Shown here: positions 13,339 through 16,394 of the stretch, piece by piece | How the letters are laid out: each line of letters opens with the position of its first letter | How positions within the stretch are numbered: the first letter of the stretch is position 1 | NCBI RefSeq assembly: GCF_003334305.1 | Contig: NZ_QOWS01000006.1 | Origin: Escherichia coli | GTDB taxonomy: Bacteria; Pseudomonadota; Gammaproteobacteria; Enterobacterales; Enterobacteriaceae | DNA: 64,000 nt | Direction: 5' to 3' (one strand) | Position numbers and translations under genes: made by a program | Notes under the pieces: model-generated | What the model was told of the DNA's origin: nothing | Databases searched by the model: none | The model's input: the letters and a program-made list of their open reading frames with translations, nothing else

Positions 13339-13368
13339 AACGCTGGCGTGGAGCAACACGCCAGCGTT
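13339..13368. terminator. perfect 12-bp stem hairpin between convergent guaC and hofC
   Basis: AACGCTGGCGTG-gagcaa-CACGCCAGCGTT; no clear U-tract; the hofC stop codon lies in the right arm. Confidence 0.5.
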
Positions 13369-14569
13369 ATCCCATCCCACTCATCGCATCGCCTAAATGG
13401 AAAATTGGCAGATACATCGCCACCACCAGCGTACCGATAATTCCTCCCGTTATGATCAGCAACGCCGGTTCCAGTAAGGCTGCGAGGTTATCCGCCAGCG
13501 CCATTGTGTTATCCCGATGATGATGGGCGAGGTTGTCTAACATGAGATCCAGCGAGCCGGATGCCTCTCCCGTTCTCACTAATTGCAAACAGAGCGGGCT
13601 AAACTCACCGGCATTTTTTAGCGCCAGCCAGATGGGATGACCGTTACTGATATCGTGCTGGATTTGTGTCAGAAGTTGCACCCAGTACGGGCAGCGCATT
13701 GTTTCTCTGACGCTCTCTACGCCCTGTAAAAAAGTAATGCCTGCACTTTGTGTCAGCGCCAGAATCGTAAAGATCTGCGTGAGTTTTTGTCCCCTCATCA
13801 GTGAACCCATAATCGGGATTCGTAACAACAATTTCTGCCGCGCGATAAGCCAGGTAGGTCGGCGCATCAGCAACTTATTGGCTATCGCCAGCAGAAAGCC
13901 GAACAACACCAGCAGCCAGCTCCATTCGCCACTAAAGTCTGCCAGCGTCATGATCCCCTGCGTTAGTGCCGGTAGTGGGGTGTTGAAGGTCTTATAGATA
14001 GCGGCAAACTCCGGCAGAACAAAATGCAGCATTGCCACAACCACCATGATTGCCATCGCTAAAATGATGATGGGATAACGTAACGCTGATTTCACTTTGT
14101 CGGTCAACTGACGCTGGGCTTTTTGCTGACGCGCCAGTTCAAAGCAGCATTCATCCAGCTTACCGGTCAGTTCACCCGTGCGGATCATCGCCTGATAGAG
14201 TGGCGGAAATACCTCTGACCAGGGTAATAAGGCATTGGAAAAAGCAATGCCCTGTTCGAGATCGTGCGCCAGCGATTGCAGCAACGCTTGCCATTGCTTA
14301 CAGGGATGCTGTTCCGCCAGCAGTGCCAGCCCTTCAGAAAGCGTTAACCCGGCTTTGAGTAGCGTCGCCAGTTGATGAATGACTTCCGCGCTTTTATCTC
14401 CTCGCCACTGCGCAGAATTGATGGCGATTCGCTTCAGGCTAAGTGGGGTAACCATCTGTTGCTGTAGTGCCATGAGCAGCAAAGCACGGCTCTCTGCCCA
14501 TAGCATCCCATCTTGCGCATTGCCGTCGCCGGTTATGCCATGCCAGCGCCAGAGTTGCTTACTCGCCAT
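13367..14569 (-). CDS. hofC: type IV pilus assembly inner-membrane platform protein (PilC/GspF family)
   Basis: 400-aa polytopic membrane ORF; 11-nt overlap with hofB. Confidence 0.92.
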   Translation of the reverse strand: MASKQLWRWHGITGDGNAQDGMLWAESRALLLMALQQQMVTPLSLKRIAINSAQWRGDKSAEVIHQLATLLKAGLTLSEGLALLAEQHPCKQWQALLQSLAHDLEQGIAFSNALLPWSEVFPPLYQAMIRTGELTGKLDECCFELARQQKAQRQLTDKVKSALRYPIIILAMAIMVVVAMLHFVLPEFAAIYKTFNTPLPALTQGIMTLADFSGEWSWLLVLFGFLLAIANKLLMRRPTWLIARQKLLLRIPIMGSLMRGQKLTQIFTILALTQSAGITFLQGVESVRETMRCPYWVQLLTQIQHDISNGHPIWLALKNAGEFSPLCLQLVRTGEASGSLDLMLDNLAHHHRDNTMALADNLAALLEPALLIITGGIIGTLVVAMYLPIFHLGDAMSGMG

Positions 14570-15944
14570 GCGGCATCCCCAGTACGCGGATTAACTCTTC
14601 AAAGGTGGTTAAGCCTTGCTCCACGGCCAGGCAGCCGTTTTCAAAAAGCGTACGCATACCCGCCTGTCGTGCGTGCGTTTCCAGCGATTCAACGTCGGTA
14701 TTAGCGGAAATAAGCTGACGAATGACCGGCGTTATGGGCAGAACTTCAAATAAGGCCGTACGACCATAAAAACCGTGGTAGCAATGTACACAACCGGGTG
14801 CCTGCCAGTGGGGCAGCGGCGATGGCCATACATTGTCTGGAATGTGGATGGGCTCCCCTTGCTGCCGGCGACAATGTGGGCAAAGTTTGCGTACCAGACG
14901 CTGGGCTATTACCAGCGTAAGCGCCGATGATAGCATCCAGCGGGCGACCCCCATTTGCTGTAAACGTACCAGCGTTTCGCAGGTGGAATTAGTGTGTAGG
15001 GTAGACAACACCAGGTGACCAGTTTGCGCCGCTTTAATAGCGATCTCTGCTGTTTCGCCATCGCGGATCTCTCCGATCATGATGACGTCAGGATCCTGGC
15101 GCAATAACGCACGCAACACGCCCTGAAAGGTGAGTCCGGCACGCGGATGGATTTGCGTCTGGTTTAGTCCGGCTATGGGGATCTCAACCGGATCTTCGAC
15201 GCTACAAATATTAATGTCAGCGGTATTCAGCGTTTGCAGGGCACTATAAAGCGTGACCGTTTTGCCGCTGCCTGTAGGGCCAGTTACCAGCACCAGTCCC
15301 TGTGGTTGTTGCAAGGCATGAGCAAAGTCCGCCAGTTGTAACGGCTGCATTCCAAGCGTGTTGACATCCAGTGCCTGGCTCACCTGCTGTAACAACCTTA
15401 ATACCACCTTTTCACCACCCCGACATGGTAAGGTCGCAATACGAAATGAGACGGCGTTTCCTGCCAGTTCGACAGTGAATTGCCCGTCCTGCGGCAGGCG
15501 ATGTTCCGCAATATCCAGGTTTCCCAGCACTTTTAATCTGGCGGTTAATGCGACTCCGGCATCCGGTGAAACATCCGGTAAAGGATGCAATACGCCGTCG
15601 ATACGCAAGCGGATGCGGTAGGCATTGTCCGCTGGTTCGATATGAATATCAGACGCGCGTTGTTCCAGCGCAGATTGTAACGTTCGAGTTAGCAACTCTG
15701 CTTTGGGCTGATGCTTCTCCTGAACAGCTACGGGCAATGTCTGTTGTGTGCGACTGGCGTGACCTTCCATTTGTTGGCGCGTCCAGCAGGTGATCTCAAT
15801 ACGTTTGGTGGTAGCGAAATGCAATGCGTCCAGTAGCTCATGCGAAGGTGCATCGACTACCGCAACATGAACCACCTCTTCGCTGGCATCCAGCAAGACT
15901 CCATGATAACGCAGACACAGGGCAGTGAGCTGTGGAATATTCAT
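14559..15944 (-). CDS. hofB: type IV pilus assembly ATPase (PilB/GspE family)
   Basis: 461-aa ORF with Walker A GPTGSGKT and C-terminal tetracysteine CPHC...CVHC. Confidence 0.93.
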   Translation of the reverse strand: MNIPQLTALCLRYHGVLLDASEEVVHVAVVDAPSHELLDALHFATTKRIEITCWTRQQMEGHASRTQQTLPVAVQEKHQPKAELLTRTLQSALEQRASDIHIEPADNAYRIRLRIDGVLHPLPDVSPDAGVALTARLKVLGNLDIAEHRLPQDGQFTVELAGNAVSFRIATLPCRGGEKVVLRLLQQVSQALDVNTLGMQPLQLADFAHALQQPQGLVLVTGPTGSGKTVTLYSALQTLNTADINICSVEDPVEIPIAGLNQTQIHPRAGLTFQGVLRALLRQDPDVIMIGEIRDGETAEIAIKAAQTGHLVLSTLHTNSTCETLVRLQQMGVARWMLSSALTLVIAQRLVRKLCPHCRRQQGEPIHIPDNVWPSPLPHWQAPGCVHCYHGFYGRTALFEVLPITPVIRQLISANTDVESLETHARQAGMRTLFENGCLAVEQGLTTFEELIRVLGMPHGE

Positions 15945-15953
15945 TGCCGCTCC

Positions 15954-16394
15954 TTAGTTGGCGTCATCAAAGCGGAAGACATCTTCGCAGGCTTGATGCA
16001 ATGCGCTGTCACTTTGAATATTGCAGTTGCGCGTCCAGCCGGTGACGCCGTTTGCGTTATCCCAACCCGGTGTCATGACGACGCTTAGCCCATTGAGACT
16101 TTCTTGCCCGGTCAGCGACACCACGCCCTTTGCCACACTCATGGCTGAAACATAGCGGGTGGTGGTAGGCGAGGGAATGCCATTGCTGCCACCGTCGCAG
16201 GTATCTAATCCACCATGTTCCAGCGCGCACAACTCTACGGCGGTACGGTAAGGCACAAAGGTTTGTAGCATGTCGGTGAGTGCGGCTTTGCGCAGGTAGT
16301 TTTGATAAGCGGGAATACCAATGGCGCTTAAAATGGCAATGATGCCAATAACCACCATCAGTTCGATAAGTGTAAAACCGCGTTGCTTGTCCAT
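15954..16394 (-). CDS. ppdD: prepilin peptidase-dependent type IV major pilin
   Basis: 146-aa ORF; N-terminus MDKQRGFTLIELMVVIGIIAIL is a class III signal (G/FTLIE cleavage-methylation motif). Confidence 0.95.
   Translation of the reverse strand: MDKQRGFTLIELMVVIGIIAILSAIGIPAYQNYLRKAALTDMLQTFVPYRTAVELCALEHGGLDTCDGGSNGIPSPTTTRYVSAMSVAKGVVSLTGQESLNGLSVVMTPGWDNANGVTGWTRNCNIQSDSALHQACEDVFRFDDAN

What the first reader, a model, noticed from the sequence alone, without database searches (positions are those of the whole stretch)
13367..16394. ppdD-hofB-hofC: compact cryptic type IV pilus module
A major pilin with a canonical class III signal, a PilB-type ATPase and a PilC-type platform protein form a tight operon (11-nt hofB/hofC overlap, 9-nt ppdD-hofB gap) but lack a secretin and prepilin peptidase in the window. 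The perfect 12-bp hairpin at 13339..13368 contains the hofC stop codon.
Basis: partly seen in the sequence, partly recalled or inferred. Interest (0 to 1): 0.35.

Follow-up and report, generated by a model that had tools for sequence, protein, structure and literature searches.

The report
E. coli ppdD-hofB-hofC pilus operon
This is the well-known, normally silent E. coli operon for the pilin, motor ATPase and membrane platform of its type IV pilus/DNA-uptake machine, so the finding is correct but ordinary; the hairpin at its end most likely belongs to the neighbouring guaC gene.

Summary
ppdD (15954-16394), hofB (14559-15944) and hofC (13367-14569) lie on the minus strand with a 9-nt gap and an 11-nt overlap. 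A perfect 12-bp/6-nt-loop hairpin sits at 13339-13368. The whole 64-kb window is 100% identical to E. coli strain A7, and the locus occurs in 5425 of 5426 complete E. coli genomes. All three proteins exceed NCBIfam equivalog cut-offs for PpdD, HofB and HofC. PpdD differs by 2 residues from the solved EHEC pilus subunit (PDB 6GV9).

The window has no secretin or peptidase. The same genome carries hofMNOPQ, ppdAB-ygdB-ppdC, yggR, pppA and a 155-aa A24 peptidase elsewhere. The operon is silent in the laboratory but not decaying (dN/dS 0.02-0.12). Published work shows Sxy plus CRP-cAMP induce it about 90-fold through a CRP-S site upstream of ppdD.

Two corrections. nadC is upstream and co-directional, not a divergent partner. 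The hairpin is most likely the 3' protective stem-loop of the Rho-terminated guaC mRNA: every one-sided change in relatives is G.U in guaC sense and C.A in hofC sense, there is no U tract, and a C-rich stretch follows.

Verdict: already known, low interest.

The parts
15954..16394 (-). ppdD: major type IVa prepilin, 146 aa. It has a 6-residue leader MDKQRG, with mature Phe1 and Glu5. Cysteines at 56/66 and 124/136 correspond to mature C50-C60 and C118-C130.
   Evidence: NCBIfam NF007862 equivalog scores 268 bits against a cut-off of 138. PDB 6GV9/6GMS 'Prepilin peptidase-dependent protein D' aligns over mature residues 1-140 with 2 differences. Cysteine positions are; the matching disulfides are described in bioRxiv 10.1101/2021.04.14.439816.
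14559..15944 (-). hofB: PilB/GspE-superfamily assembly ATPase, 461 aa. RefSeq labels it 'gspE'.
   Evidence: NF007755 equivalog scores 824 bits against a cut-off of 617. The PilB (487 vs 676) and GspE (457 vs 630) equivalogs are below cut-off. Pfam finds T2SSE at 75-453 and a weak MshEN match at 8-69. Walker A, Asp box, Walker B, His box and 2x CxxC are present.
13367..14569 (-). hofC: PilC/GspF-type inner-membrane platform protein, 400 aa.
   Evidence: NF007861 equivalog scores 660 bits against a cut-off of 401. Two T2SSF domains lie at 64-186 and 269-388. Three hydrophobic segments lie near 167-185, 215-235 and 369-390.
16520..16541 (-). Candidate CRP-S (Sxy-dependent CRP) site. The core is TTCGT-N6-TCGCA at 16538-16523, centred 136.5 nt upstream of the ppdD ATG.
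   Evidence: It is the best match (8/10) to TGCGA-N6-TCGCA in the spacer. It lies inside the 16478-16608 fragment that CRP band-shifted in PMC1635313; both primers map exactly. The block is conserved in Citrobacter, where the left half reads TTCGA. The exact site is inferred here, because the paper's figure is not held.
16560..16583 (-). Stem-loop just after the nadC stop codon (ATCCGCTCC...GGGCGGAT). It separates nadC from the ppdD promoter.
   Evidence: The fold gives -15.9 kcal/mol with a weak z of -2.1. It is kept in Escherichia and replaced by REP-like palindromes in Citrobacter.
13339..13368 (+). GC-rich 12-bp hairpin, 6 nt after the guaC stop codon and overlapping the hofC stop codon. 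Read here as the guaC mRNA 3' protective stem-loop.
   Evidence: Searches confirm the structure. It is single copy per genome. It is conserved in Escherichia and Citrobacter, with 93% of cells paired and 5 pairs changed on both sides. All 11 G.U cells are in guaC sense.
13369..13470 (+). C-rich, G-poor stretch downstream of the hairpin in guaC sense. It is rut-like and antisense to the hofC 3' end.
   Evidence: C/G is 3.25 over 32 nt and 2.06 over 102 nt, against 1.13 for the whole hofC antisense strand. Window 13870-13970 is the amplicon whose RNA rose on Rho inactivation in bioRxiv 10.1101/2020.04.19.049098.

Best explanation
This is the chromosomal ppdD-hofB-hofC operon of Escherichia coli (hcpABC in EHEC). 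It encodes the major pilin, the extension ATPase and the inner-membrane platform of the enterobacterial type IVa pilus, which is also the Sxy-regulated DNA-uptake machine.

Inferred mechanism, from the families involved: PpdD is cleaved after Gly-1 by a prepilin peptidase encoded elsewhere. HofB hexamers, acting through HofC, then push PpdD out of the membrane into a filament. The filament is primed by PpdA/PpdB/YgdB/PpdC, aligned by HofMNOP and passes the HofQ secretin. All of these partners are encoded at other loci.

The three genes are read as one translationally coupled message. Its promoter needs CRP-cAMP plus Sxy (TfoX) at a weak CRP-S site in the nadC-ppdD spacer, which is why the operon is silent in ordinary culture.

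The hairpin at the hofC stop codon most likely works on the opposite strand. It would be the exonuclease-resistant 3' stem-loop of the guaC mRNA, whose transcription runs on into hofC antisense until Rho stops it.
For: Identity:
- The window is 100% identical to strain A7 over 64,000 nt.
- The locus is in 5425 of 5426 complete E. coli genomes.
- All three NCBIfam equivalogs are above cut-off.
- PDB 6GV9/6GMS is EHEC PpdD, with 2 substitutions relative to the window.
- Pfam finds T2SSE in HofB and 2x T2SSF in HofC. The ATPase and pilin motifs are present.
- The locus differs from K-12 by 33 of 3501 nt, and both intergenic spacers are identical.

Partners in the same genome:
- hofMNOPQ.
- ppdA-ppdB-ygdB-ppdC.
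- yggR, a PilT-like ATPase.
- pppA within a full T2SS-beta cluster.
- A 155-aa Peptidase_A24 protein carrying LPD and GYGD motifs.
- This 13-gene set (12 assembly genes plus ppdD) is the one used to rebuild PpdD pili (bioRxiv 10.1101/856302).

Regulation:
- CRP binds the ppdD upstream fragment, and Sxy induces the operon 90-fold in a CRP/cAMP-dependent way. That qPCR used hofB primers (window 15515-15623), so the induced message reaches hofB (PMC1635313).
- Processed PpdD is made and hofQ-dependent DNA uptake occurs on sxy expression (PMC3330819).

Maintenance:
- Synteny and intact ORFs are found in 11 Escherichia/Citrobacter genomes (a twelfth, L022, gave only a partial HofC match), and dN/dS is 0.02-0.12.

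Hairpin:
- About 8 independent one-sided changes are all G.U in guaC sense and C.A in hofC sense.
- Neither side has a U tract.
- The C. amalonaticus lineage has a true U tract in guaC sense only.
- Strain A24 deleted the hofC 3' end but kept the hairpin.
- The region downstream of guaC is a validated Rho target.
- Rho-dependent mRNAs end at such U-less stem-loops, with rut sites just beyond (PMC6061677).
- C/G is 3.25 immediately after the stem.
Against: - Nothing contradicts the identity of the operon.
- The exact CRP-S position and the transcription start are inferred. No sigma-70-like promoter was found by the scan, and the spacing of the site to any -10 element is unresolved.
- The hairpin is almost equally stable in both senses in this strain, so a secondary role at the end of the hof message cannot be excluded.
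- The 8-of-8 G.U polarity could be partly inflated by leading-strand C-to-T mutation bias.
- No 3'-end mapping data for guaC could be read directly, because the supplement is not held.
- Which peptidase processes PpdD in this strain is untested.
Confidence: 0.93

Rival explanations
1. The hairpin is the intrinsic or bidirectional terminator of the ppdD-hofB-hofC message. This is the implied first reading, since it contains the hofC stop codon.
For: It sits exactly at the end of hofC. In this strain it folds slightly better in hofC sense, with 13 pairs and -25.2 kcal/mol. Convergent genes often share one terminator (general knowledge).
Against: No U tract follows it in hofC sense (GGGAGATTAC). 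In relatives, every one-sided substitution breaks the hofC-sense stem but keeps the guaC-sense stem, giving 146 vs 135 paired cells and 11 vs 0 G.U cells. In Citrobacter the stem stays 14 nt from the guaC stop codon while drifting away from the hofC stop codon. Strain A24 lost the hofC end but kept the stem.
Confidence: 0.2
2. The module belongs to a type II secretion system rather than a pilus. RefSeq names HofB 'type II secretion system protein GspE'.
For: The product name of NF007755 is GspE. T2SS and T4P parts are homologous. PpdD can be assembled by a heterologous T2SS (cited in PMC2649431).
Against: The GspE, GspF and GspG equivalogs are all well below cut-off. PpdD forms a solved type IV pilus. 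A complete and separate gspC-M cluster with its own GspE/F/G exists in the same genome. There are no secretin, GspC/L/M or pseudopilin genes nearby.
Confidence: 0.03
3. The operon is a functionless relic that is silent because it is decaying.
For: No expression is seen in standard culture or in 72 ECOR strains (PMC3330819). No sigma-70 consensus promoter was found. Occasional natural lesions occur, such as the hofC 3' deletion in strain A24.
Against: dN/dS of 0.02-0.12 is similar to nadC, and the ORFs are intact across Escherichia and Citrobacter. The locus is present in 5425 of 5426 genomes. Sxy induces it strongly and hofQ-dependent DNA uptake follows. EHEC makes the pili.
Confidence: 0.02

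Closest known systems
E. coli K-12 ppdD-hofB-hofC (b0108-b0106)
   Same: Same genes, order, spacing and flanks (nadC upstream, guaC convergent). Both intergenic spacers are identical.
   Different: 33 of 3501 nt differ. This gives 1 (PpdD H133Q), 2 (HofB) and 6 (HofC) amino-acid changes.
EHEC O157:H7 hemorrhagic coli pilus, hcpA-hcpB-hcpC (PDB 6GV9, 6GMS)
   Same: Orthologous operon. PpdD has the same two disulfides and the residues E53/H54.
   Different: 84 of 3501 nt differ. PpdD carries T121A and H133Q. The O157 hairpin carries one C-to-T change that is G.U only in guaC sense.
Haemophilus influenzae pilABCD competence operon
   Same: Same pilin-ATPase-platform order and the same Sxy plus CRP-S control (PMC1635313).
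   Different: According to general knowledge of that operon, the prepilin peptidase pilD is part of it. Here the peptidase genes are hundreds of kb away.
Pseudomonas aeruginosa pilA / pilBCD (type IVa pilus)
   Same: Homologous pilin, PilB-type ATPase and PilC platform. PpdD can be assembled in P. aeruginosa (cited in PMC2649431).
   Different: HofB is about 100 residues shorter at the N terminus (it aligns from residue 60 to PilB position 160) and scores below the PilB equivalog cut-off. No pilD is linked.
Stem-loop 3' ends of Rho-dependent E. coli transcripts (Dar and Sorek 2018, PMC6061677)
   Same: A stable GC-rich stem without a U tract sits just after the stop codon, with a C>G region immediately downstream and Rho-sensitive read-through.
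   Different: The guaC 3' end itself could not be read from the paper's tables. Here the stem also overlaps the stop codon of the convergent gene.

Membership tests
Type IVa major pilin (class III signal) | A short basic leader ending in Gly-1, followed by Phe+1, Glu+5 and a hydrophobic helix of about 20 residues. | tested here: met
   The sequence is MDKQRG|FTLIELMVVIGIIAILSAIGIPAY. TIGR02532 matches at 4-27 with 35.9 bits against a cut-off of 16.3.
Type IVa major pilin (class III signal) | A C-terminal disulfide loop. The enterobacterial subclass has a second disulfide, C50-C60. | tested here: met
   Cysteines lie at precursor positions 56, 66, 124 and 136, which are mature positions 50, 60, 118 and 130. 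This matches.
Type IVa major pilin (class III signal) | The protein assembles into a filament. | not testable with these tools
   The EHEC orthologue, with 2 aa differences, is solved as a pilus in 6GV9.
PpdD equivalog NF007862 | Full-length score above the curated cut-off. | tested here: met
   268.2 bits against a cut-off of 138.
PilB/GspE secretion ATPase superfamily (T2SSE) | Walker A, Asp box, Walker B, His box and a tetracysteine motif. | tested here: met
   GPTGSGKT 222-229, SVEDPVE 248-254, LRQDPDVIMIGEIRD 281-295, TGHLVLSTLH 308-317, CPHC 355 and CVHC 385. PF00437 matches with E = 3.7e-147.
Type IV-A PilB equivalog TIGR02538 | Score above the cut-off, with the full N-terminal region. 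| tested here: not met
   487.5 bits against a cut-off of 675.65, with only residues 60-454 aligned. HofB works like PilB but is filed in its own equivalog, NF007755 (824 bits against 617).
T2SS GspE equivalog TIGR02533 | Score above the cut-off. | tested here: not met
   457.5 bits against a cut-off of 630.25.
PilC/GspF platform protein | Two T2SSF repeats and three membrane segments. | tested here: met
   PF00482 matches twice. Three hydrophobic segments are present. NF007861 scores 659.7 bits against a cut-off of 401.
Sxy/CRP-S regulon promoter | A 22-bp CRP site with TGCGA-type core half-sites, weak CRP binding, and induction that needs Sxy, CRP and cAMP. | tested here: inconclusive
   The best candidate scores 8/10 at 16523-16538, inside the published band-shift fragment, and is conserved in Citrobacter. 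Binding and induction are shown in PMC1635313 for a K-12 spacer identical to this one. The exact site is not confirmed here.
Intrinsic (Rho-independent) terminator | A GC-rich stem-loop followed by a U tract of 7-8 nt. | tested here: not met
   The stem is present but no T run follows on either strand, and the terminator scan did not call it.
Protective 3' stem-loop of a Rho-dependent transcript | A stable stem without a U tract, C>G downstream, Rho-sensitive read-through, and a steady-state 3' end at the stem. | tested here: inconclusive
   The first three features are met. The mapped 3' end is not available to me.

The most novel reading that the evidence does not exclude
The guaC stem-loop overlaps the hofC stop codon. 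Rho-limited guaC read-through also runs antisense across the hofC 3' half. Together these might couple the two convergent units, so that strong guaC transcription (or reduced Rho activity) would damp the pilus/DNA-uptake operon by transcriptional interference or antisense pairing. That would add a second layer to its 'crypticity' beyond the need for Sxy. Separately, the invariant leader blocks at 16445-16470 and 16417-16436 might be an unrecognised operator or a ribosome-binding-site-masking element.
Probability: 0.1. Interest if true: 0.3.

Novelty: already known. Interest (0 to 1): 0.08.

Why it matters
The operon is a textbook component of the E. coli core genome. It builds the EHEC 'hemorrhagic coli pilus' and is part of the Sxy-controlled DNA-uptake machinery, so re-finding it adds nothing new.

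This check does add three things:
- A complete parts list for the exact genome concerned.
- Evidence that the silent operon is under housekeeping-level purifying selection.
- A strand-polarity argument that reassigns the terminal hairpin to guaC, with a warning that the RefSeq name 'gspE' for hofB is misleading.

Tried and rejected
- **Rfam.** A permissive scan of 13000-17000 gave no match.
- **Sigma-70 promoters.** The scan gave 0 sites in 13100-16800, against 3.2 expected by chance. This fits an activator-dependent promoter but gives no transcription start.
- **Terminator scan.** Six sites were found against 4.0 expected, none at gene ends. All are treated as chance, including the plus-strand site at 16469-16485 in the ppdD leader.
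- **Dispersed-repeat (REP-like) origin of the hairpin.** Rejected, because there is one copy per genome in 5425 genomes and one copy in the window.
- **Conserved RNA structure in the ppdD leader.** The consensus fold is only -7.3 kcal/mol, and one pair at most changes on both sides. Not supported.
- **NCBIfam on the 155-aa peptidase.** No hit. Pfam identified Peptidase_A24.
- **Literature not held.** Sinha et al. 2009 (the CRP-S regulon table) could not be read. The supplements of PMC1635313 and PMC6061677 are not held either. As a result, the published CRP-S coordinates and the guaC 3' end could not be read.
- **T2SS membership and the 'relic' reading.** Both were considered and rejected (see the rival explanations).
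Full report
**Observation**

The ORF list and the sequence show three minus-strand genes at exactly the reported coordinates:
- ppdD, 15954-16394, 146 aa.
- hofB, 14559-15944, 461 aa.
- hofC, 13367-14569, 400 aa.

Each starts with ATG and ends with TAA. The ppdD-hofB gap is 9 nt, and the hofB ribosome-binding site AAGGAG overlaps the ppdD stop codon. hofB and hofC overlap by 11 nt (ATGGCGAGTAA).

The hairpin at 13339-13368 is a perfect 12-bp stem with a 6-nt loop. No shuffled sequence produced such a match. It is far more stable than shuffles on both strands: -25.2 kcal/mol in hofC sense and -23.9 in guaC sense. Two bases of the hofC stop codon are inside the perfect stem. 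A further U.G pair takes in the third base.

**Identity**

The whole 64,000-nt window is identical, base for base, to Escherichia coli strain A7 (NZ_CP028767.1, positions 809679-873678). The 3.5-kb locus is present in 5425 of 5426 complete E. coli genomes at 95-100% identity, flanked by guaC and nadC.

The three proteins exceed the curated cut-offs of the NCBIfam equivalogs for PpdD, HofB and HofC. The HofB family carries the product name 'GspE'. All three proteins fall well below the cut-offs for genuine T2SS GspG, GspE and GspF, and HofB is also below the cut-off for PilB.

Pfam finds the T2SSE ATPase domain plus a weak MshEN match in HofB, and two T2SSF repeats in HofC. HofB carries Walker A, an Asp box, Walker B, a His box and two CxxC motifs. 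PpdD reads MDKQRG|FTLIE..., with four cysteines at the positions of the two published disulfides.

Mature PpdD aligns end to end with the subunit of the solved EHEC type IV pilus (6GV9), with two substitutions. Relative to K-12, the locus differs at 33 of 3501 nt, and both flanking spacers are identical. K-12 experiments therefore apply directly.

**Missing partners**

The window indeed has no secretin or prepilin peptidase. In the same genome the partners lie at these positions:

| Genes | Position in A7 |
|---|---|
| hofMNOPQ (alignment proteins and secretin) | 4,424,279-4,427,565 |
| ppdA-ppdB-ygdB-ppdC (minor pilins) | 3,803,446-3,805,182 |
| yggR (PilT-like ATPase) | 3,946,564-3,947,544 |
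| pppA (full-length prepilin peptidase, inside a complete T2SS-beta cluster) | 4,020,149-4,020,958 |
| 155-aa Peptidase_A24 protein | 4,374,271-4,374,738 |

The 155-aa protein has LPD and GYGD motifs. It lies between rpsJ and bfr, where, from my own knowledge of the K-12 map, K-12 has gspA-O. This gene set is the one used to reconstitute PpdD pili: hofBC, hofMNOPQ, ppdAB-ygdB-ppdC and gspO (bioRxiv 10.1101/856302).

**How it works**

The steps of pilin cleavage, ATPase-driven extrusion through HofC, and passage through HofQ are inferred from the families.

Published experiments show the following:
- CRP binds the ppdD upstream fragment weakly.
- Sxy induces the operon about 90-fold, strictly dependent on CRP and cAMP (PMC1635313).
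- Processed PpdD appears and hofQ-dependent DNA uptake occurs on sxy expression (PMC3330819).
- EHEC assembles PpdD pili.

The primers of PMC1635313 map exactly onto the window. The band-shift fragment is 16478-16608, and the 'ppdD' qPCR amplicon lies in hofB at 15515-15623. The induced message therefore extends into hofB.

Within the band-shift fragment, the best CRP-S-like core is TTCGTAACGCCTCGCA at 16538-16523 (8/10). It is conserved in Citrobacter. The transcription start is not known to me.

nadC lies upstream on the same strand and is followed by its own stem-loop at 16560-16583.

**Selection**

A scan of one genome per species returned 12 loci from Escherichia and Citrobacter. All have the order ampD / nadC-ppdD-hofB-hofC / guaC / coaE. 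In 11 of them the three genes are full length; L022 gave only a partial HofC match and was left out of the dN/dS analysis.

| Gene | dN/dS |
|---|---|
| ppdD | 0.02-0.09 |
| hofB | 0.06-0.09 |
| hofC | 0.06-0.12 |
| nadC | 0.03-0.08 |
| guaC | 0.01-0.03 |

. The operon is silent in the laboratory but is not decaying.

**The hairpin**

It is single copy per genome. A homologous GC-rich stem lies between guaC and hofC in all Escherichia loci and in five of the seven Citrobacter loci; in the other two, REP-like palindromes take its place. On the 13-sequence alignment, 93% of cells pair and five pairs change on both sides.

All eleven cells that pair only as G.U do so in guaC sense and would be C.A mismatches in hofC sense. 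None goes the other way. This represents about eight independent events.

Further points:
- Neither side has a U tract in E. coli.
- The C. amalonaticus lineage has one (UUCUGCUUUUG) in guaC sense only.
- Strain A24 has lost the hofC 3' end up to the stem but kept the stem.
- The 32 nt after the stem in guaC sense have C/G = 3.25.
- RNA 538-638 nt downstream of guaC (window 13870-13970, antisense to hofC) rises sharply when Rho is inactivated and is described as a validated Rho target (bioRxiv 10.1101/2020.04.19.049098).
- Dar and Sorek showed that Rho-dependent E. coli mRNAs end at stable U-less stem-loops that block PNPase and RNase II, with rut sites just beyond (PMC6061677).

The hairpin therefore fits the guaC mRNA 3' protective stem-loop. 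Its overlap with the hofC stop codon looks like a consequence of tight convergent packing. My confidence in this is about 0.65.

Caveats: leading-strand C-to-T mutation bias could inflate the polarity signal, and I could not read a mapped guaC 3' end.

**Verdict**

Interest is low. The only mildly new point is the reassignment of the hairpin to guaC, and with it the possibility that guaC read-through interferes with hofC.

Noticed in passing
window 14559-15944: RefSeq/PGAP names hofB 'gspE: type II secretion system protein GspE' through NF007755. The protein is below the cut-off of the true GspE equivalog, and a real gspE exists elsewhere in the same genome (A7 4,015,113-4,016,606). This is an annotation trap.
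   Followed up: yes
L011-L022 vs window 13367-16394: The major pilin is more conserved than its machinery. Between E. coli and Citrobacter, PpdD is 88-92% identical (dN 0.05-0.08, like nadC). HofB is 74-78% and HofC 65-76% identical (dN 0.15-0.21). This is unusual for a surface pilin.
   Followed up: partly
window 16417-16470 (minus strand): Two blocks of the ppdD leader are almost invariant from Escherichia to Citrobacter: CGTTTCGTTTTTTGCCCCTCGCC and GTTTGCCAAAGTAGCGCC. A CUC/GAG pairing with the ribosome-binding site is possible, but no covariation supports a structure.
   Followed up: partly
L010 (E. coli strain A24, armadillo): hofC is annotated as a pseudogene that lacks its C terminus. 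The deletion starts just after the guaC-side hairpin, which is retained.
   Followed up: partly
L005 9271-9738 (strain A7, between rpsJ and bfr): Only a 155-aa Peptidase_A24 gene remains where, from my own knowledge of the K-12 map, K-12 carries the gspA-O cluster. It has both catalytic Asp motifs (LPD and GYGD). It is much shorter than PppA (269 aa), so it presumably lacks the N-terminal region of full-length prepilin peptidases (inferred, not tested). It has no NCBIfam hit.
   Followed up: partly
window 51343-53943: The Yad fimbria usher gene htrE is annotated as a pseudogene with an internal stop, inside an otherwise intact yadN-yadV-htrE-yadMLKC chaperone-usher cluster.
   Followed up: no
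window 35201-35548: yacC is annotated as a 'YacC family pilotin-like protein'. It is the only other secretin-related item in the window, and it has no secretin gene nearby.
   Followed up: no
L015, L016, L020 about 1965-2050; L017 and L019 about 5205-5275: In Citrobacter, REP-like palindromes (GCCGGATAAGGC...GCCATCCGGC) are inserted in the nadC-ppdD spacer. In two species they replace the guaC-hofC hairpin.
   Followed up: no
window 16597-17532: The mechanical ORF for nadC is 311 aa, from an upstream ATG. The annotated and homology-supported start gives 297 aa (16597-17490).
   Followed up: partly
E. coli genome search: One of 5426 complete genomes has no match to the locus, and three matches are on records labelled as plasmids. 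Neither case was examined.
   Followed up: no
L025 22489-33828 (strain A7, pheV island): A Druantia anti-phage system (druA-E) and a second chaperone-usher fimbrial cluster sit in an island next to tRNA-Phe. They lie outside the window, in the same genome.
   Followed up: no
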